From: a virus | Virus record (IMG/VR): IMGVR_UViG_3300035047_000236 | DNA: 62,853 bases | Reading direction: 5' to 3' (one strand) | Shown here: in pieces, positions 2,641 to 52,506 of the stretch | Position numbering within the stretch: the stretch's first letter is position 1 | How the letters are laid out: each line of letters starts with the position of its first letter | The notes under the pieces: model-generated | What the model was told of the DNA's origin: nothing | The model's database searches: none | The model's input: the letters and a program-made list of their open reading frames with translations, nothing else | Position numbers and translations under genes: made by a program

Positions 2641-3780
2641 TTATTTCCTCCTTAAATTTTTATTTGATAAAGTTCTTGCTTTATCTAAAATTCTTATTAG
2701 ACGATCTGTTGCCTCATCTATATTTCTATCAGATCGTTCATAATTAAAAAGTTCGTTTATATATGAAGATGCGGTGGTTGTTATTTTATTTGTTAAGCAA
2801 TCATCATCTAAAGAGTTTTTATTTTCAGATGAACATTTTTCTCCATACTCTGTGCACCAATCTTCTTGTAACAAACTACCTTTTTCATCATTTAAATTTT
2901 TCATATATTTTGGGCAGACTTTAGCATCTGCTTCTGCTTCTGCTTCTGCTTCTGCTTCTGCTGTTATGTTTTCTTCATCCAAGTCTGAATTTTTTTCTTC
3001 CTCTACAGTATCTTCATTTTCTGAAGCTACCTCTATATATATATCGAGGTTAAATAAAACCTCTTCATTTTCATCATCTTTTTCATCAGCTGTTTCTAAA
3101 ACAACAGACGGTGGATTTGCTGGATTCTTAACTATACCGCAACCAGAAAAACAAATACCTCTAAGAACCCTAGCTACTTCTCCAGAAGCAACTTCTTTAC
3201 CATCTTTTATAATTTTTCCTAGTTTTCCATATATACTAACATCAGAAGTTTCTATACCTATTGCTTCTGCAGTAGTTCTTGGTATAATCATATCACCTAC
3301 TTTTATGTCAAAATCCTTGTAAAAACATTCCATAGAGACCTTCCATTCATCATCAGCTATTTCTTTAGAAAGTTCTGGAAATCTACTTTTATATACTATA
3401 CATCCAATTTGTATATGCATATCACTTGTATCTAGTACAGCTGTTTCAAGACCTGCTAATTCTTTAGAAGAAAGTTCGCTTCCTGAGTCATCTGTAAATG
3501 CACTAGAGAATATATGCCCTATTATGTCTTTTTCCTTGTGCTCTACATCAAGAGCCTTACTAACAACCGTATTCTCTGCTGCAACTAATTCTGAACCAAG
3601 GAAATATGCATGATTTAGATTTTCTCCGCTGGAAACAAAAATCGCACTAAAATAAGAAAGATCTGGTTGTTTTTCATCATCACTTGGTAAATCTATAACA
3701 GATGCGACCTCTTTTTTCAGAGAATCTGTTTCTTTCACTTTTGTCATATTTGCCTCTAAATAAAACTTATATTCTTCCAT
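2641..3780 (-). CDS. Probable prohead maturation protease / head morphogenesis protein
   Basis: N-x-N-x-x-x-F, DVEH...IIGH, VSMEC and FSGCGIVKNPANP motifs typical of large-phage head maturation proteins. ATG 3780 follows GGAGG. Confidence 0.6.
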   Translation of the reverse strand: MEEYKFYLEANMTKVKETDSLKKEVASVIDLPSDDEKQPDLSYFSAIFVSSGENLNHAYFLGSELVAAENTVVSKALDVEHKEKDIIGHIFSSAFTDDSGSELSSKELAGLETAVLDTSDMHIQIGCIVYKSRFPELSKEIADDEWKVSMECFYKDFDIKVGDMIIPRTTAEAIGIETSDVSIYGKLGKIIKDGKEVASGEVARVLRGICFSGCGIVKNPANPPSVVLETADEKDDENEEVLFNLDIYIEVASENEDTVEEEKNSDLDEENITAEAEAEAEAEADAKVCPKYMKNLNDEKGSLLQEDWCTEYGEKCSSENKNSLDDDCLTNKITTTASSYINELFNYERSDRNIDEATDRLIRILDKARTLSNKNLRRK

Positions 3781-43131: not shown

Positions 43132-44010
43132 TTAGGTTCTATTACACACAGTATTAACACTATTCTTCCTTAGTTCTGCCAGTGTACAACCTTCTAGTTG
43201 ATGACAGACCTCATAATGACAATATTTACATAATCCCCAAAGATTGTCTTTGTCTAGTTGTAAATGGGGATGTGTTGCTACTGGTTTCTCGTGATGTACT
43301 TCTTCACTTGGGTGTTCACCACACATTTCACACATGCCATCATTTCTAGAAAGTATTTCATCACGAAGTTCTTGTGGTATGGGCTCTCTTAATGTTGGAT
43401 TATTAGGAACTAAAGCGTATGTCTTAAACACAGGACATACCACTTTGCATTCTTCTGAACAATATAAATTGTTTTCTGCATTACCAGCTCGTCCGTCTAA
43501 CGCAACCATTCTGTGCCAAACCTGTGAATTGGTAGGCTTAAAGTACTTTCTACAATATTTGCACTTAACTTCTAAACTAATACCGTCTTTAGATAGCATA
43601 GCACCTTCGTCTATGGTTAATCTATCACTATAAGTTTTAAATCTAGCGAGCCTTTTGCCACGTTTTTTATCATTCTCTCTGTAGATTTCTATATTATCTT
43701 TACGATATTGTCTGTTCCAGGCTAATCTTTTTTCTCTGTTTTTCCAATACCTTTTTCTATCAGCACTTTTCACTGCTTCGAGATTTTCTTTTCTATATAT
43801 TCTTGCCTTTTCTATTATTATTTCTCTATTTTTACACCTATACTCTCTTTGATTCTTTTTATAATATTCTTGGTTATTTTGGTAATACTTTTTACATCTT
43901 TTTTTATTACATTCTCTGCAATCACCTCTTAGAGAAAACGTACTGTGTTTATTTTTAGGAAAATCCCATAACGCTTTATGCTTACCGCACTTTGTACATA
44001 TTTTCCACAT
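43132..44010 (-). CDS. HNH homing endonuclease, paralog of 39745..40572
   Basis: Shared LTIDE...KDGISLEV.CKYC.K.F.PT...YCS..CK..CP, EVHHEKP...NLWGLCKYCH. Confidence 0.85.
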   Translation of the reverse strand: MWKICTKCGKHKALWDFPKNKHSTFSLRGDCRECNKKRCKKYYQNNQEYYKKNQREYRCKNREIIIEKARIYRKENLEAVKSADRKRYWKNREKRLAWNRQYRKDNIEIYRENDKKRGKRLARFKTYSDRLTIDEGAMLSKDGISLEVKCKYCRKYFKPTNSQVWHRMVALDGRAGNAENNLYCSEECKVVCPVFKTYALVPNNPTLREPIPQELRDEILSRNDGMCEMCGEHPSEEVHHEKPVATHPHLQLDKDNLWGLCKYCHYEVCHQLEGCTLAELRKNSVNTVCNRT

Positions 44011-44057
44011 AAAAAATACTCCTTATTTTAAATAATACTAATATAATACAGTATTTA

Positions 44058-45302
44058 CTATTGTAAAGACACTTTATTAAAATCTAAATATGACTTACAC
44101 ACCATGTATAGGTCACACTCAGAATAATGCCCTAAACCTGCATTAACTGCCCATATAACAACCCTACAGTTATCAGGAGTATACCCCTTACTAACATCAA
44201 CTCTGTCTATAGAAGGACCGTATGGGTTTCTTGGTTTGAATGCATCGTAGTCATACTCAATTCCTGTTAGCTCACATTTATTTTCCTTCATTTTTTCATA
44301 TAACCACTCTTTAGTTATATTATGCTCTAAGTTCTTTTGTTTAGATCTAACTCTTGAATAGTATAATAATCTTCTTATTTTGAATTCTTTTGGGTTTTTT
44401 GTTTTAAGTTTTTTTAAGTTCTTTTTGTTTTGTTTAATTATATAGTCTTTTCTTTTTGATGGTTCAATAGGCATCTTATATATTCTATATGTACCTTTAA
44501 TTTTTCTCATATACTCGTTAGTTTTATCTATTTTTCCAAGTTTTTTAAAATATTTTTGTTTTTCTATTATTTCAGGAATTAATAATAATTCTATATCTGT
44601 TATTTCTATTTGTTTACTTAGTTTCCATTCTTTCTTTATTTTAGTTAGTTTATTTTTAAATTTTATTGCGTGTTCATTACAACAATAAAAAGTTGTACTA
44701 TGTTTTTTAGAGTTAGTACCATTAATAAAAGATCTTATTTTTCTAACTTGATTAAAATTAGGTTCAAACCACTCATTACAATAAACACATCTAACATTAA
44801 GTATATCTTTATCATAACTTGCTTGACATATATCGTAGTATATACCTAAATCAACATATCGGTTGTACAATACATGCATCTTTCCTTTTTCCATTATTTT
44901 CCAATAACGGTCTGTTTTATGTTTTTTATTAAGTTTTTTAATGTATATATCTTTTTTATGTTTGGCAATTATAGCTGCAGATTTAAGTTTTTGTGATTTG
45001 GTTTTCTTTTCGTTATTCCAGTCTTTATGTTTGTTTTTACACTTATTAGAGCAATAACACTTCTTTATGCTTATACGATGTAGTACTTCCTCATTACACC
45101 ATTCGCATTTGTTTTCTTCATAATAACCTTTTATTTCAAAATATTTATTACTAGGTATGCCAGTTTTAAAGTGAGGAACTCCTTTGTATAAAGCAAGTCC
45201 TTTAGAGGTAGGTTTTAATATATGTTGTTCTAACTCTTCATAACACAGTTTAATGGTTTTAGGTACTATTTGTTTCATTTTACCTCCTATTGCGTTTTTC
45301 AT
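44058..45302 (-). CDS. Putative His-Me finger endonuclease
   Basis: C-terminal CELTG...PSIDRVDVSKGYTPDNC...N. Confidence 0.7.
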   Translation of the reverse strand: MKNAIGGKMKQIVPKTIKLCYEELEQHILKPTSKGLALYKGVPHFKTGIPSNKYFEIKGYYEENKCEWCNEEVLHRISIKKCYCSNKCKNKHKDWNNEKKTKSQKLKSAAIIAKHKKDIYIKKLNKKHKTDRYWKIMEKGKMHVLYNRYVDLGIYYDICQASYDKDILNVRCVYCNEWFEPNFNQVRKIRSFINGTNSKKHSTTFYCCNEHAIKFKNKLTKIKKEWKLSKQIEITDIELLLIPEIIEKQKYFKKLGKIDKTNEYMRKIKGTYRIYKMPIEPSKRKDYIIKQNKKNLKKLKTKNPKEFKIRRLLYYSRVRSKQKNLEHNITKEWLYEKMKENKCELTGIEYDYDAFKPRNPYGPSIDRVDVSKGYTPDNCRVVIWAVNAGLGHYSECDLYMVCKSYLDFNKVSLQ

Positions 45303-45624: not shown

Positions 45625-46053
45625 AGTTATTTTCCTTTTCTGATTGTTTTACTATAGTTATTGGTACTGTTTGTAGTAAAGACTTATTATGATAGTAATA
45701 TGGTTAATGTTATGATTATTAATACTACTTATCTAATAATATCATAGTCAGTTAAATATTTAACATTCTATTTAAATAGAGTTTGGGTACCATTCTATGA
45801 TGGTCATCTATATTTAAAATTCACCAAATTTTGGGACCCAGGGTAACAGGGTTATGAGATGTATATTTTACATATACATTTTGGTTATAGCCCCCTTAAC
45901 TGATTGGCAGTTGACTGGGACTATGAGTGATCAACTGGACTCAATCATAAGCATTTGATTGAACCACCTGGTTGGTTGCTTTATTTTTTCAGGGGACCCC
46001 CCCTGGGTCTAACTGCCAGGATACTTGGTAGCAACCCTCTTACAAGGAGGTGC

Positions 46054-46820: not shown

Positions 46821-47043
46821 CCATTGAGGTTTTGGAGAGAAATCCTGCACCCCGCCAGAGGTGTATCACTCAATCTGGTAGCCCGCGTACAAGCGACCGC
46901 CAAGTGGTGTGGGTGGAAACAGCAGCATTAACAGTGCTGGCTGACAGACGCTTGTGTAACTTCCATGTTAATAACCGTTGTGCTCCGCTTTGAGGAGATT
47001 GCCTACCATAGTGCGTAGGTCAACATTAACATGGAGGCTTATA

Positions 47044-47465
47044 TGATAATCCGTTGGTTAGGGGCTTTTCGTAAGTCCAATAGTAACGGGTTATTGGATA
47101 GTCTCGTGTGGGAGACTTCCCAGAATGACCGTACAGCTCTTGCAGCTGAGCGGTTGGTTAAGGGAAAGTCTCGTATCCACGGGTCTAAGATAGGCTTGCT
47201 GGTAAAGAATCGGTCACTTCTTCGGAAGTTTTCCGGTGATGTCTGGTCAGAGTATGACCCAGACACTGGTAAGCTTATCAAGACTCGGCATGAACACTCT
47301 GCATATTCAAGTCACACAGAGTGCTTCGTGCGCCCTGACTACTGTGGTATTGTGGTCAAACGTGGCGCACGGGAACGTGCTACCGAGACTGCAAGGGCAT
47401 TCGCACAGTCCCACGGATTGCCTTTGTTAAGACTTACCAGGGACGGAAGGTTGGTGAGTTTTTAA
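47044..47465 (+). CDS. Hypothetical protein
   Basis: GGAGG RBS shortly upstream; start near MIIRW (approximate). Confidence 0.6.
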
Positions 47466-47466
47466 C

Positions 47467-47845
47467 TAAGTTCAAGTGCCCCGATTCTTGAAACAGATAG
47501 GGGAAGGGTAAGCGGCTTGACCGCCGTTGTCCTGAACACCGGAGTATCCTCGGTGAGTATAAAAATAAGGATACAGGCTTGCCAGGGCGCCTAATAAAAC
47601 GCTGAGGACCTGGAGCGGCTTCCCCGCCAGCCGGAAGACATCTGCGGGCACAACCTGGATGCTTCGTAGCATATGAAGGGATTGTGTAAACATTAAGGAC
47701 TCTTGACACCACAGAGTATAAACAAAAGGTGACGGTGAGCCACATTGGTTCCTGTGTAATTCAGGATTAAATCACCGTGGCGGTAATCAAACCGTCGATA
47801 TTAAACCACTCCGGTCAAGGGGAACGCTGAACCGGAGTTTTATTT
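47467..47845 (+). ncRNA. Candidate large structured non-coding RNA
   Basis: No plus-strand ORF with RBS, dense hairpins and at least three H-type pseudoknots. Confidence 0.55.
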
Positions 47846-48151
47846 TAGCAAAGCCCACTGCATATGAAAGGAGTCTATAATAACTACAATCAACTTTTCC
47901 ACCAACGGCACAATTTGTTTCCCCGTTTCCGCCTCTACCGCCAATAGGATTAATAATGAGGTACGGCGTGCATGCCTTTGTCTGGAGGCAGAGGTGAACA
48001 TAGCCAGCCCCACAATCACACCGTCCACCTACAACCCAACAACTAACACACAACCAACCTATTCATATGCACAGTCCAGTAACTAACCTCCACCCAGTTC
48101 CGTGGTCGTTTTATTATTACACTAGACTGTGATTATGAAACATACTAGTGA

Positions 48152-48207
48152 ACTCGTCATGGCGAGTATAAATAGACCTTAAGCCATGAGCGTCCTTATG
48201 GGGTGGT
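48152..48207 (+). ncRNA. Pistol self-cleaving ribozyme
   Basis: P1 ACUCG/CGAGU, loop UCAUGG pairs with CCAUGA, AUAAAUAG, P2 ACC/GGU, UUAAG...AGCG, P3 UCC/GGG, GU cleavage site at 48203/48204. Confidence 0.9.
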
Positions 48208-48246
48208 AATTACAATAATCAATAACTGTATAATAGGAGGCGATGA

Positions 48247-48426
48247 ATGGACAAAAAGGCAAGGGTTATAGTCCTCTACGAAGATAACACCATCTTCGAC
48301 ATCTATGAGTTTGATTTGAGGACTAGAAAGGATGGTTTGTCTAAACCTCTCTGTGATATGCTTTGGATTGCAGAGCAGATCAGACCTGATGGTGGAAAAA
48401 TTCAGGTTGATTTTATCAAAGATTAA
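48247..48426 (+). CDS. 59-aa hypothetical protein downstream of the ribozyme (not in track)
   Basis: GGAGG RBS, MDKKARVIVLYEDNTIFDIYEFDL... Confidence 0.65.
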   Translation: MDKKARVIVLYEDNTIFDIYEFDLRTRKDGLSKPLCDMLWIAEQIRPDGGKIQVDFIKD

Positions 48427-51416: not shown

Positions 51417-52025
51417 ATGAGAACTAACACTAACAAAAACCATGATCCTAACACAATTATGCTAAACTATGAGTTCTGTAATATCCAGGAACTCAAATGC
51501 ATGCTCCTTAAAGGAACAGATTTGGTGTTTGAAAAGATTAAACTTTATGATGAAGCTCCTGCTACCAAAACACCATTTATGGAAGAAGATTTGTTCGGAA
51601 ACGATTTCCATTTGTTTTTACATTCAAGATACAGGGGTGGAATTGGTATTGAAATTAACTTTGATGCCACTCTCAACCGGCTCAGGAAGATTAATCAAGA
51701 TTTAATTTGCCAGGGAATACGGTGTAAATGGAGAGTCGAATACATGAATCTTCGGAACCAGTCCTCTGGAGTTGTTTATAATTTCAGAACAGAGATGGAA
51801 GGTAAAGTCTGTTGTATGTATCTGGAAAATGTAAACGGCAAACACTACACCTCTTTGTCTAAAGAAGAATTTAAAGAGTGTATAGTAGATCTTGCAGATA
51901 TAACCTATACACCATGTTACAAGAAAAATGGTAAAAGAGAACCTGCAGAGAAATGCAGTGCTAGATTTCAAACAGACGAACAGTTAAAAGATATGGACAG
52001 CAGTATAAGAAATGTATGGAATTAA
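51417..52025 (+). CDS. Hypothetical protein
   Basis: AAGGAG RBS. Confidence 0.7.
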   Translation: MRTNTNKNHDPNTIMLNYEFCNIQELKCMLLKGTDLVFEKIKLYDEAPATKTPFMEEDLFGNDFHLFLHSRYRGGIGIEINFDATLNRLRKINQDLICQGIRCKWRVEYMNLRNQSSGVVYNFRTEMEGKVCCMYLENVNGKHYTSLSKEEFKECIVDLADITYTPCYKKNGKREPAEKCSARFQTDEQLKDMDSSIRNVWN

Positions 52026-52035
52026 AGGAGGACTA

Positions 52036-52506
52036 ATGCCGACTAACACAGTCTATGGTGATTTAATCACCCTTGCAGAAAACGGTCATTTCGATGTCAT
52101 AGTGCATGGATGTAACTGTTTCTGTACTATGGGTGCTGGAATTGCCAAACAGATTAAAATGAGGTATCCTGAAGCCTATGAGGCTGATTTGAGAACCTTG
52201 AGAGGTGACATGAGGAAACTTGGTACATACTCTTGTGCTAATGTAAAGTGCGAGAGAACTGGTATCAATTTCACCATTGTCAATGCATATACTCAGTTCA
52301 GGTACGGTAAGGGTAATCATGCCGACGAACTGGCTATAGATGCTGTATTCAAAGCAATTGCTAATGACTTCCATCCCCACAGTAGGATAGCTTACCCCAA
52401 AATTGGGGCTGGTTTGGCTGGAGGCAATTGGGAAAGAATCAGCAGGATAATTAATTATGCACTGGCGGGCAGAATTCACACGCTAGTGGTTTTTGAAAGG
52501 AGGTAA
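52036..52506 (+). CDS. Macrodomain (ADP-ribose hydrolase) protein
   Basis: GDLI...IVHGCNCFCTMGAGIAKQI...NAYTQ...YPKIGAGLAGGNW. ATG 52036 after GGAGG. Confidence 0.9.
   Translation: MPTNTVYGDLITLAENGHFDVIVHGCNCFCTMGAGIAKQIKMRYPEAYEADLRTLRGDMRKLGTYSCANVKCERTGINFTIVNAYTQFRYGKGNHADELAIDAVFKAIANDFHPHSRIAYPKIGAGLAGGNWERISRIINYALAGRIHTLVVFERR

What the first reader, a model, noticed from the sequence alone, without database searches (positions are those of the whole stretch)
47467..47845. ~380-nt non-coding RNA built from a chain of pseudoknots and hairpins
Seen: PK1 TTCAAG(47471)/CTTGAA with loop CCCC pairing to GGGG(47500). PK2 CACCG(47537)/CGGTG with loop GTATCCT pairing to AGGATAC(47568) across an AGTATAAAAAT linker. 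PK3 ACTCT(47699)/AGAGT with loop CACC pairing to GGTG(47728) across ATAAACAAAA. Also GCACAA(47648)/TTGTGT(47682) and stems CCAGG/CCTGG, CGGCT/AGCCG, ACGGTGA/TCACCGT, ACTCCGGT/ACCGGAGT. I cannot assign a known class. Known: type III toxin-antitoxin antitoxins (ToxI, CptI, antiQ) are H-type pseudoknots with A-rich flanks, and phage phiTE evades ToxIN with pseudo-ToxI RNA. Inference: a multi-decoy anti-defence RNA or a new large phage ncRNA.
Basis: partly seen in the sequence, partly recalled or inferred. Interest (0 to 1): 0.8.

Follow-up and report, generated by a model that had tools for sequence, protein, structure and literature searches.

The report
Phage pseudoknot-chain RNA beside ADP-ribosyltransferase gene
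The flagged stretch is a real, conserved and previously undescribed phage RNA made of a hairpin and at least three consecutive pseudoknots. It always sits directly behind a tiny predicted ADP-ribosyltransferase gene, so the two probably work together.

Summary
Window 47475-47846 (+) is a non-coding RNA that follows the stop codon of a 140-aa gene (47043-47465) and ends in an intrinsic terminator.

**Family evidence.** Homologues of that gene in about 45 metagenomic phage contigs are mostly followed by the same RNA. It consists of a hairpin with a conserved internal loop (E1), then H-type pseudoknots PK-A, PK-B and PK-C, plus PK-D in the core clade.
- Covariance models built without the window find it (E 8e-4). 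A later model finds 17 members, all directly 3' of the gene.
- 94.8% of cells are paired, against 33-45% in slid controls. 22 of 25 pairs show compensatory changes, including the pseudoknot helices that the model did not contain.
- Rfam 15 has no match.

PK2 and the CCAGG/CCTGG and CGGCT/AGCCG stems are confirmed. The two stems are parts of PK-B and PK-C. PK1 is not a pseudoknot. PK3 is untested.

**Upstream protein.** It is basic (pI about 10) and folds like ADP-ribosyltransferases (CteC Z 9.1; Tpt1, DarT).

**Interpretation.** The type III antitoxin decoy idea is not supported: there are no repeats, no ToxN-like gene, and the stems drift freely. I infer that the RNA is the dedicated partner of the transferase, as inhibitor, pseudo-substrate or scaffold. 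This is unproven.

The scan had not found this RNA before on other DNA.

The parts
47043..47465 (+). 140-aa basic protein gene (GGAGG RBS at 47034-47038), a predicted minimal ADP-ribosyltransferase. The RNA starts right after its stop codon.
   Evidence: 36 homologues. AF2 model pLDDT 88. VIA Z 9.1 to CteC, 5.1 to Tpt1, 4.7 to DarT. Foldseek prob 0.98 to CteC. Invariant R4, S69, H91, E93. pI 10.3. No Pfam, PHROG or PADLOC family.
47478..47503 (+). E1 hairpin. Outer stem CCCC 47479-82 / GGGG 47500-03. Conserved internal loop GAU(UC)...(GA)UA. Inner stem UCU 47486-88 / AGA 47495-97.
   Evidence: The motif GAWUC...GAUAG lies within 0-18 nt of the stop codon in 14 loci (16 rows matched; two lack the motif or lie at 75 nt), with outer stems of different sequence. 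The TTCAAG arm is not kept in L002.
47512..47524 (+). E2, a small lineage-specific hairpin (GCGG/CCGC) inserted between E1 and PK-A.
   Evidence: Seen in the window and L002. An analogous hairpin CTGGCC/GGCCAG sits at the same place in L004. It is absent from the core clade.
47537..47574 (+). Stem 1 is CACCG 47537-41 / CGGTG 47551-55. Loop GTATCCT 47544-50 pairs with AGGATAC 47568-74 across the A-rich linker 47556-67.
   Evidence: Helices 1 and 2: 4/5 and 5/5 pairs with compensatory changes, 99% and 91% of cells paired. Helix 2 was not part of the covariance model.
47575..47613 (+). PK-B. Stem 1 is AGGCTT 47575-80 / GCGCCT 47587-92. Loop CCAGG 47582-86 pairs with CCTGG 47609-13 across the conserved linker AAUAAAACGCUGAGGA 47593-608.
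   Evidence: Helices 3 and 4: 6/6 and 4/5 pairs compensatory, 97% and 99% paired. Linker positions CAAU, AAACG, AG.GA are invariant or nearly so.
47616..47648 (+). PK-C. Stem 1 is CGGCT 47616-20 / AGCCG 47629-33. Loop CCCGC 47623-27 pairs with GCGGG 47644-48 across the purine-rich linker 47634-43.
   Evidence: A hairpin whose loop pairs downstream is found at the same position in 13 of 14 family members, convincingly in 12, with different sequences. Stem 1 is helix 5.
47648..47687 (+). Stem GCACAA 47648-53 / TTGTGT 47682-87 enclosing hairpin ATGCT 47659-63 / AGCAT 47668-72. It occupies the place of PK-D of the core clade.
   Evidence: L002 has ATACT/AGTAT, a compensatory change, and keeps the outer stem through wobble pairs. 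PK-D itself is shown in 9 of 10 core sequences but is not recognisable in the window.
47699..47731 (+). ACTCT 47699-703 / AGAGT 47713-17. Loop CACC 47707-10 pairs with GGTG 47728-31 across AUAAACAAAA.
   Evidence: Present. Identical in L002, so there is no covariation test. It has the same topology and a GAGUAUAAA tail like PK-A (D5).
47732..47796 (+). Lineage-specific 3' domain. Stem ACGGTGA 47732-38 / TCACCGT 47772-78 encloses two hairpins (47737-51, 47751-65). Hairpin 47779-96 follows.
   Evidence: Only loop and hairpin-tip changes are seen between the window and L002.
47808..47846 (+). Intrinsic terminator. ACTCCGGT 47808-15 / ACCGGAGT 47831-38, then TTTTATTTT. The loop carries a second copy of AACGCTGA, the motif of the PK-B linker.
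   Evidence: The stem covaries in L002 (ACCTAGGT/ACCTGGGT) while the 15-nt loop is identical. The 8-mer repeat is D17.
48152..48208 (+). Pistol ribozyme. It is a neighbour in the same gene-free gap and not part of the RNA.
   Evidence: Rfam RF02679, 59.7 bits. Also present in L002 and L003.

Best explanation
Window 47475-47846 encodes a member of a previously undescribed family of phage RNAs.

**Shown**
- The RNA consists of a hairpin with a fixed internal loop (E1) followed by a string of classical H-type pseudoknots. PK-A, PK-B and PK-C occur in all members. PK-D occurs in the core clade. The window has an extra lineage-specific 3' domain and a terminator.
- The RNA begins 0-15 nt after the stop codon of a 140-aa early gene.
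- No conserved promoter motif was seen in the last 75 nt of that gene.

**Inferred**
- The RNA is therefore made as the 3' extension of that gene's early transcript.
- The gene product is a minimal, strongly basic ADP-ribosyltransferase. This rests on a fold prediction and a candidate R-S-E triad (R4, S69, E93).
- The RNA works as the dedicated RNA partner of this enzyme. The pseudoknots form compact, nuclease-resistant beads. These display invariant single-stranded purine-rich linkers (PK-A AAAAUAUA; PK-B CAAU..AAACG..AGAGA) and the E1 loop. The basic transferase binds these.
- The RNA thereby acts as a pseudo-substrate inhibitor (a type III-toxin-antitoxin-like logic with a transferase instead of a nuclease) or as a scaffold that directs the enzyme.
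For: **RNA reality and family**
- Model R1 was built from 9 other loci using hairpin stems only. It finds the window (E 8e-4), L002, L001, L015 and L039.
- Model R2 finds 17 members, including L049 and L004, which were not in its seed. All lie on the gene's strand directly 3' of the gene. There is a single hit in the 62.8-kb window.
- 94.8% of cells are paired against 33-45% when partners are slid. 22 of 25 pairs show changes on both sides, and 0 of 500 shuffles reach the observed values (similar).
- PK-C and PK-D recur at fixed positions with different sequences.
- Against L002 the RNA core is 97.2% identical. The gene is 82.1% identical, its third codon positions 66.7%, and the upstream gap 60.7%.

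**Linkage to the gene**
- Gaps of 200-700 nt follow the gene in L001, L002, L004, L007, L008 and L010.
- The downstream gene varies: Csx16, unknown genes, or none before a terminator.

**Protein**
- AF2 pLDDT 88.
- CteC Z 9.1 over 130 of 140 residues. Tpt1 5.1, DarT 4.7/4.7/4.5, SopF-type 4.1, scabin 3.4.
- Foldseek probability 0.98.
- Invariant R4, S69, H91 and E93.
- Median pI 10.2 across 20 members.
Against: - No binding, transcription or enzymatic data exist. All members are uncultivated.
- Some homologues of the gene lack the RNA (L050, L060), so the enzyme does not strictly need it.
- In most relatives no terminator follows the RNA and the next gene's RBS comes 10-25 nt later. This fits an intercistronic cis element as well.
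- The catalytic triad is read from an alignment and a predicted model, not from a superposition.
- The RNA was searched independently of the gene only in the fetched loci and by one exact pattern in viral contigs. RNA copies without the gene are therefore not excluded.
Confidence: 0.45

Rival explanations
1. A purely cis-acting mRNA element. A string of mechanically stable, triplex-type pseudoknots placed after the stop codon blocks 3'-to-5' (or RNase J-type 5'-to-3') decay. Alternatively it marks a processing site, setting the level of the transferase message or insulating it from the next cistron.
For: It starts 0-15 nt after the stop codon. In most relatives it is intercistronic with no terminator of its own. 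A-rich third loops opposite 5-6 bp stems are the classic geometry of stable H-type pseudoknots.
Against: It does not explain why the element follows this one gene family across very divergent phages while the downstream gene varies. It also does not explain why an 16-18-nt linker (PK-B) and the E1 loop are conserved at the base level, beyond what a stem-crossing loop needs. Nor does it explain why the linker motif AACGCUGA is repeated in the terminator loop of the window.
Confidence: 0.25
2. The RNA is the substrate of the transferase. Either it is ADP-ribosylated at a defined site (as Tpt1, RhsP2 and CmdT modify RNA), or it is attached to host proteins in an RNAylation reaction like that of T4 ModB.
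For: After CteC, most of the next-ranked structural matches of the protein are nucleic-acid-targeting transferases (Tpt1, DarT, scabin, pierisin). The protein is very basic. ModB attaches NAD-capped RNA to rS1 and rL2 (PMC10468400). RhsP2 modifies 2'-OH of structured RNA (abstracts). The same early block encodes a macrodomain.
Against: RNAylation needs a 5' NAD cap, hence an own promoter with +1A. None is conserved in the last 75 nt of the gene. ModB prefers unstructured 5' ends. No conserved candidate acceptor site could be singled out.
Confidence: 0.15
3. An autonomous ligand-sensing or catalytic RNA, that is, tandem riboswitch-like aptamers or a new ribozyme. On this reading its position behind the transferase gene is incidental or regulatory for downstream genes.
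For: H-type pseudoknots with conserved linkers are typical of small aptamers (preQ1-I, SAM-II, fluoride, guanidine-III; general knowledge). A pistol ribozyme lies 300 nt downstream. PK-A and PK3 share the tail GAGUAUAAA with pistol P1 (D5 and D9).
Against: No Rfam family matches at E up to 10 in the window or up to 5 in seven homologous loci. The downstream gene is not conserved. The RBS is not sequestered. In the window a terminator with a constitutive-looking stem follows. Pistol itself is present only in the window, L002 and L003.
Confidence: 0.1
4. One reading: a multi-decoy of type III antitoxins (pseudo-ToxI, CptI, antiQ) that neutralises host abortive-infection nucleases.
For: The units are H-type pseudoknots with A-rich flanks. 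The location is an early, anti-defence-rich block: Csx16 follows the RNA in relatives and a macrodomain lies nearby.
Against: There are no repeats. Each unit is different and individually conserved over phages of very different composition. The stems covary freely, so their sequence is not constrained to mimic a host RNA. The RNA is strictly linked to a phage transferase gene. No Rfam antitoxin family is hit.
Confidence: 0.03

Closest known systems
Type III toxin-antitoxin RNAs (ToxI, CptI, TenpI, antiQ) and phage pseudo-ToxI
   Same: A protein-RNA gene pair on one transcript. The RNA units are H-type pseudoknots flanked by A-rich single strands. The proposed logic is an RNA that holds a potentially toxic enzyme.
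   Different: Those are tandem repeats of one 34-45-nt unit placed upstream of an endoribonuclease, which cuts them into monomers. Here there are four different non-repeated pseudoknots downstream of an ADP-ribosyltransferase-fold protein, in phages rather than in host defence islands.
Pseudoknot strings of tmRNA (PK2-PK4) and of tobamovirus 3' UTRs (upstream pseudoknot domain)
   Same: Three or four consecutive H-type pseudoknots arranged head to tail in one RNA. In tobamoviruses they lie directly after a stop codon.
   Different: There is no tRNA-like domain and no tag ORF. ARAGORN and all Rfam tmRNA models are negative. The linker sequences are conserved here, whereas tmRNA pseudoknots are largely replaceable.
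Small triplex-forming pseudoknot aptamers (preQ1-I, SAM-II/V, fluoride, guanidine-III)
   Same: Each has a 5-6 bp stem 1, a short loop 1, helix 2 formed by the hairpin loop, and a purine-rich loop 3 of 10-18 nt with conserved bases.
   Different: No covariance-model match. The RNA is not upstream of a regulated gene. Four units are in series.
Pistol ribozyme (RF02679)
   Same: It has a hairpin whose loop forms a pseudoknot, followed by the tail GAGUAUAAA. A true pistol lies in the same gap.
   Different: In PK-A the pseudoknot partner follows the linker directly. There is no P2/P3 and no G-U cleavage site. The Rfam model matches only 48152-48208.
Phage ADP-ribosyltransferases that deal with RNA (T4 ModB RNAylation; bacterial RhsP2, CmdT, Tpt1/KptA)
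   Same: An ART-fold enzyme in an early phage block with a functional tie to RNA.
   Different: None of these has a dedicated structured RNA gene next to it. The protein here is about half their size and matches no named family.
Large orphan phage-associated RNAs (GOLLD, ROOL)
   Same: Conserved, ornate, function-unknown RNAs carried by phages and known mainly from metagenomes.
   Different: No Rfam match. It is much smaller (150-380 nt), built from serial pseudoknots, and linked to a protein gene rather than to tRNA clusters.

Membership tests
Type III antitoxin RNA (ToxI/CptI/TenpI/antiQ) | Tandem direct repeats of one 34-45-nt unit | tested here: not met
   TRF finds nothing at score 30 or more. 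The repeat finder gives only 8-23-nt imperfect pairs.
Type III antitoxin RNA (ToxI/CptI/TenpI/antiQ) | Adjacent downstream endoribonuclease toxin (ToxN/AbiQ/CptN/TenpN) | tested here: not met
   The linked gene is upstream and has an ADP-ribosyltransferase fold. It has no PADLOC or Pfam toxin family. The downstream genes are unrelated and variable.
Type III antitoxin RNA (ToxI/CptI/TenpI/antiQ) | Pseudoknotted unit with A-rich single-stranded flanks | tested here: met
   PK-A, PK-B and PK-C with covariation.
Pistol ribozyme (for PK-A / PK3) | Match to RF02679 with P1, pseudoknot, P2, P3 and the G-U site | tested here: not met
   The only hit is 48152-48208. Nothing is found at 47537-47731 at E up to 10.
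tmRNA | tRNA-like domain plus tag reading frame | tested here: not met
   ARAGORN finds 0 genes. No Rfam tmRNA hit in the region.
Known riboswitch or other Rfam 15 family | Covariance-model match | tested here: not met
   No hit in window 47300-48400 at E up to 10. No hit on the RNA in seven homologous loci at E up to 5.
New family: transferase-linked pseudoknot-chain RNA | E1 hairpin with GAWUC...GAUA loop, then PK-A, PK-B with the CAAU..AAACG..AGRGA linker, then PK-C | tested here: met
   The window scores 19.5 bits (E 8e-4) with a model built without it, and 72.3 bits with R2. The elements are mapped.
New family: transferase-linked pseudoknot-chain RNA | Position directly 3' of a homologue of the 140-aa gene, on the same strand | tested here: met
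   All 17 significant R2 hits are so placed.
New family: transferase-linked pseudoknot-chain RNA | Fourth pseudoknot PK-D | tested here: not met
   Present in 9 of 10 core sequences. The window has a different stem-loop there. It is treated as a clade feature, not as defining.
ADP-ribosyltransferase superfamily (upstream protein) | ART fold | tested here: met
   Z 9.1, rmsd 3.1 A, 130 of 140 residues against CteC 8ux2. Most of the next-ranked matches are also transferases. Foldseek probability 0.93-0.98. This rests on a predicted model.
ADP-ribosyltransferase superfamily (upstream protein) | Catalytic triad of the R-S-E clade on strands 1, 2 and 5 | tested here: inconclusive
   R4, S69 and E93 are invariant and lie on strands. 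No residue-level superposition was available. The S-to-E spacing is unusually short.
ADP-ribosyltransferase superfamily (upstream protein) | NAD-dependent transfer activity | not testable with these tools
   Needs biochemistry.

The most novel reading that the evidence does not exclude
The gene and the RNA form a new kind of ribonucleoprotein module. A minimal phage ADP-ribosyltransferase would have its activity held in check or aimed at its target by its own co-transcribed multi-pseudoknot RNA. This would be a type III-like protein-RNA pair with a transferase instead of a nuclease, or the first RNA-guided or RNA-scaffolded ADP-ribosylation.
Probability: 0.3. Interest if true: 0.9.

Novelty: categorically new. 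Interest (0 to 1): 0.8.

Why it matters
If the reading holds, there are three consequences.
- It adds a new class to the short list of natural RNAs built from serial pseudoknots.
- It defines an unannotated family of very small ADP-ribosyltransferases in uncultivated phages.
- It links the two genetically.

ADP-ribosylation is a central weapon on both sides of phage-host conflict: T4 Alt/ModA/ModB, DarTG, CmdTAC. No transferase is known to have a dedicated structured RNA partner.

The pair is compact, about 0.8 kb. It can be synthesised and tested directly in laboratory strains, so the open question of what controls or targets small phage transferases becomes experimentally approachable.

Even if the RNA proves to be only a cis stabiliser, a conserved chain of four triplex-type pseudoknots would be a useful natural model for RNA mechanical and nuclease resistance.

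Tried and rejected
- **Known RNA families.** Rfam at gathering and at permissive thresholds, on the window and on seven homologous loci, returned only pistol. ARAGORN found nothing.
- **Cultured phages.** INPHARED phage genomes gave no match by DNA or by protein.
- **The window's own genome.** No whole genome is held.
- **Exact RNA patterns in viral contigs.** The results were 0 and 1 hits. This is too strict to map the family.
- **Pistol in the related contig G001.** None was found, and the controls did not ring either, so the result is uninformative.
- **The protein.** Pfam, PHROGs, PADLOC and the PDB sequence profile gave no family. The ESM Atlas gave only weak leads: DUF2971 at TM 0.49 and HvnC at 0.55.
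- **Minus-strand ORFs as genes.** Rejected. Their sequences are compositionally odd and there are no conserved homologues at the equivalent position. Long stop-free runs on the minus strand are a by-product of the purine-rich plus strand.
- **A recurrent WAAACR motif as a recognition site.** It is only 1.7-fold enriched, so the idea was dropped.
- **A simple pseudoknot counter on the window alone.** It found 2 against 0.08 expected. However, 7 of 165 other tiles reach 2, so single-sequence evidence is weak and the case rests on comparison.
- **Stop-codon readthrough.** Considered and rejected. The distance from the stop codon to PK-A varies from 21 to 72 nt, and the frames close early in relatives.
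- **Literature.** Searches found no description of such an RNA or of an RNA-partnered transferase.

Full report
**1. What is at the site**

The window looks like a phage contig. Structural genes lie on the minus strand up to about 45.6 kb, and a GC-richer block of small plus-strand genes starts at about 45.9 kb.

Between the gene ending at 47465 and the next credible gene at 48247 lie 781 bases without a convincing ORF. The minus-strand ORFs give arginine- and cysteine-rich nonsense. They have no conserved counterparts at the equivalent place in related loci.

Rfam finds one known element in the whole window, a pistol ribozyme at 48152-48208 (59.7 bits). It finds nothing else in 47300-48400 even at E up to 10. 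There are no tRNA or tmRNA genes and no tandem repeats.

The last stem (47808-47838) is followed by TTTTATTTT. The flagged 380 nt is therefore a unit bounded by a stop codon and an intrinsic terminator.

**2. Relatives**

The stretch has no match in cultured phage genomes by DNA or by protein.

The upstream gene has its true start at 47043, behind a GGAGG, and encodes 140 aa. It has 36 homologues in the large protein collection. Further homologues occur in metagenome, viral and MAG contigs.

Fetching their surroundings showed that the gene is usually followed by a GC-rich gap of 200-700 nt. The closest relative is L002, with 86% protein identity. It carries an almost identical RNA, then an inserted 68-aa gene, then the same pistol ribozyme.

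**3. A conserved chain of pseudoknots**

Reading the gaps side by side shows the same order of elements in very different sequences.
- **E1.** A hairpin that starts 0-15 nt after the stop codon. It carries the fixed loop GAWUC...GAUA between a variable outer stem and a variable inner stem.
- **PK-A.** A 5-bp hairpin whose loop pairs with 5-7 nt that follow an A-rich linker (consensus AAAAUAUA).
- **PK-B.** A 6-bp hairpin whose loop pairs with 5 nt after a 16-18-nt linker. The linker has near-invariant CAAU, AAACG and AGAGA.
- **PK-C.** A 4-6-bp hairpin whose loop pairs after a purine-rich linker. It is found at the same place in 13 of 14 sequences, convincingly in 12, with nine different helix-2 sequences.
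- **PK-D.** Present in 9 of 10 core sequences.

In the window these elements are:
- E1 at 47478-47503
- an extra small hairpin at 47512-47524
- PK-A at 47537-47574
- PK-B at 47575-47613
- PK-C at 47616-47648

**4. Statistics**

Model R1 was built from nine other loci with only the nested hairpin stems. It recovers the window (E 8e-4), L002, L001, L015 and L039.

Model R2 finds 17 members at E 0.011 or lower, including L049 and L004, which were not in its seed. Every one lies on the gene's strand directly behind the gene. The 62.8-kb window has exactly one hit.

On the resulting alignment:
- 94.8% of cells form standard pairs, against 33-45% when the 3' partners are slid by 1-3 columns.
- 22 of 25 pairs show changes on both sides.
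- None of 500 shuffles reaches any observed measure (one search is similar).
- The two pseudoknot helices were not in the model and so were not fitted. They are 91% and 98.6% paired, with 5/5 and 4/5 covarying pairs.

Between the window and L002, identities are as follows:

| Region | Identity |
|---|---|
| RNA core | 97.2% |
| Adjacent gene | 82.1% |
| Third codon positions of the gene | 66.7% |
| Gap upstream of the gene | 60.7% |

The RNA is thus under much stronger nucleotide-level constraint than its surroundings.

**5.

- PK2 is PK-A.
- CCAGG/CCTGG is helix 2 of PK-B.
- CGGCT/AGCCG is stem 1 of PK-C. Its second helix (CCCGC/GCGGG) was missed.
- PK1 fails. Its 5' arm is replaced by an unpairable sequence in L002, and CCCC/GGGG is simply the outer stem of E1.
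- In the 3' half (47650-47846, shared only with L002), three elements receive support. Hairpin ATGCT/AGCAT has a compensatory change. Stem GCACAA/TTGTGT is kept through wobble changes. The terminator stem changes from ACTCCGGT/ACCGGAGT to ACCTAGGT/ACCTGGGT while its loop is unchanged.
- PK3 and ACGGTGA/TCACCGT are invariant and remain untested.
- The terminator loop repeats the 8-mer AACGCTGA of the PK-B linker.

**6. The linked protein**

The family has no Pfam, PHROG or PADLOC assignment.

An AlphaFold model from 20 aligned members is confident (pLDDT 88, pTM 0.84). Its structural matches are:
- Foldseek's best PDB matches are the mono-ADP-ribosyltransferase CteC (probability 0.93-0.98) and Tpt1.
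- An exhaustive structural alignment gives CteC at Z 9.1 over 130 of 140 residues.
- Next come Tpt1 (5.1), three DarT entries (4.7-4.5), a SopF-type effector, DarT1, scabin, TreX and pierisin.

Invariant R4, S69 and E93 sit on strands, in the order expected for the R-S-E clade. This reading is plausible but was not checked by superposition.

All 20 members are strongly basic, with median pI 10.2. The published classification of viral transferases (PMC9503650) mentions neither pseudoknots nor non-coding RNA.

**7. How it most likely works**

*Shown:* this is a conserved structured RNA. It is physically and evolutionarily tied to this gene. No conserved promoter motif was seen in the last 75 nt of the gene.

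*Inferred:*
- The RNA is transcribed as the 3' extension of the early transferase message.
- It folds into compact pseudoknot beads that expose fixed purine-rich linkers.
- The basic transferase binds these linkers.
- The RNA thereby restrains the enzyme as a pseudo-substrate, or directs it.

I put this at about 0.45.

Rivals:
- A cis stabiliser or processing element (0.25). This is favoured by the intercistronic position in most relatives, but it leaves the gene-specific linkage and the conserved linkers unexplained.
- The RNA as substrate or RNAylation donor (0.15). ModB-type RNAylation needs an NAD-capped 5' end (PMC10468400), for which no promoter is seen.
- An autonomous aptamer or ribozyme (0.1).
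- The type III antitoxin decoy (0.03). This is contradicted by the absence of repeats, the free drift of stem sequences and the linkage to a phage gene.

**8. Novelty**

No Rfam 15 family matches. No phage record matches. Full-text searches found no paper describing such an RNA or a transferase with an RNA partner.

The nearest analogies are type III antitoxins, the pseudoknot strings of tmRNA and tobamoviral 3' UTRs, and triplex-type aptamers. Each fails on defining features (see the membership table).

I therefore class it as a new RNA family and a new gene-RNA association. Its function is still inferred. All members are uncultivated, so transcription and activity remain to be shown.

Noticed in passing
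window 47847-48246; L002 2536-2868: The pistol ribozyme (48152-48208) is preceded by about 300 nt of C/A-rich, gene-free sequence. This sequence is homologous in L002 (74% identity over the last 160 nt, against 98% for the pistol). It contains a long imperfect inverted repeat (48062-48080 / 48121-48139). The predicted cleavage would trim the leader of the next gene. It may be a second structured leader.
   Followed up: partly
L001 4662-4955; also L021, L022, L036, L037 directly after the RNA: In five relatives the gene after the RNA is a Csx16 / Cas_VVA1548 homologue (PF09652, E 1e-14; PADLOC Csx16). This is a type III CRISPR accessory family. The transferase-RNA pair therefore sits in an anti-defence-type neighbourhood.
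   Followed up: partly
window 52012-52506: A macro domain protein (PF01661, E 1.5e-8) lies in the same early block. An ADP-ribose-removing enzyme is thus encoded 4.5 kb from the predicted transferase.
   Followed up: partly
L008/L024 about 3620-3650; L027 about 960-985; L033 about 2520-2545: More distant homologues of the transferase gene lack the R1/R2-type RNA. They still have long gaps that share a different hairpin, GGGG-AUAAAC(G/A)AAAA-CCCC. This may be a second RNA class linked to the same gene family.
   Followed up: no
window 47598-47605 and 47823-47830: The exact 8-mer AACGCTGA occurs twice in single-stranded contexts: in the PK-B linker and in the terminator loop. The loop is unchanged in L002 although its stem has changed.
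   Followed up: partly
It is only 60.7% identical to L002 with many indels, so it is far less constrained than the downstream RNA.
   Followed up: partly
L004 712-1839 (also L005, L006): A TnpB / Cas12f1-like gene (PF07282) lies on the opposite strand about 1.2 kb upstream of the transferase gene in one relative.
   Followed up: no
window 43132-45302 (-): Two adjacent HNH / endonuclease VII-like genes (292 and 414 aa) sit at the end of the minus-strand block, just before the divergent AT-rich region 45625-45950.
   Followed up: no
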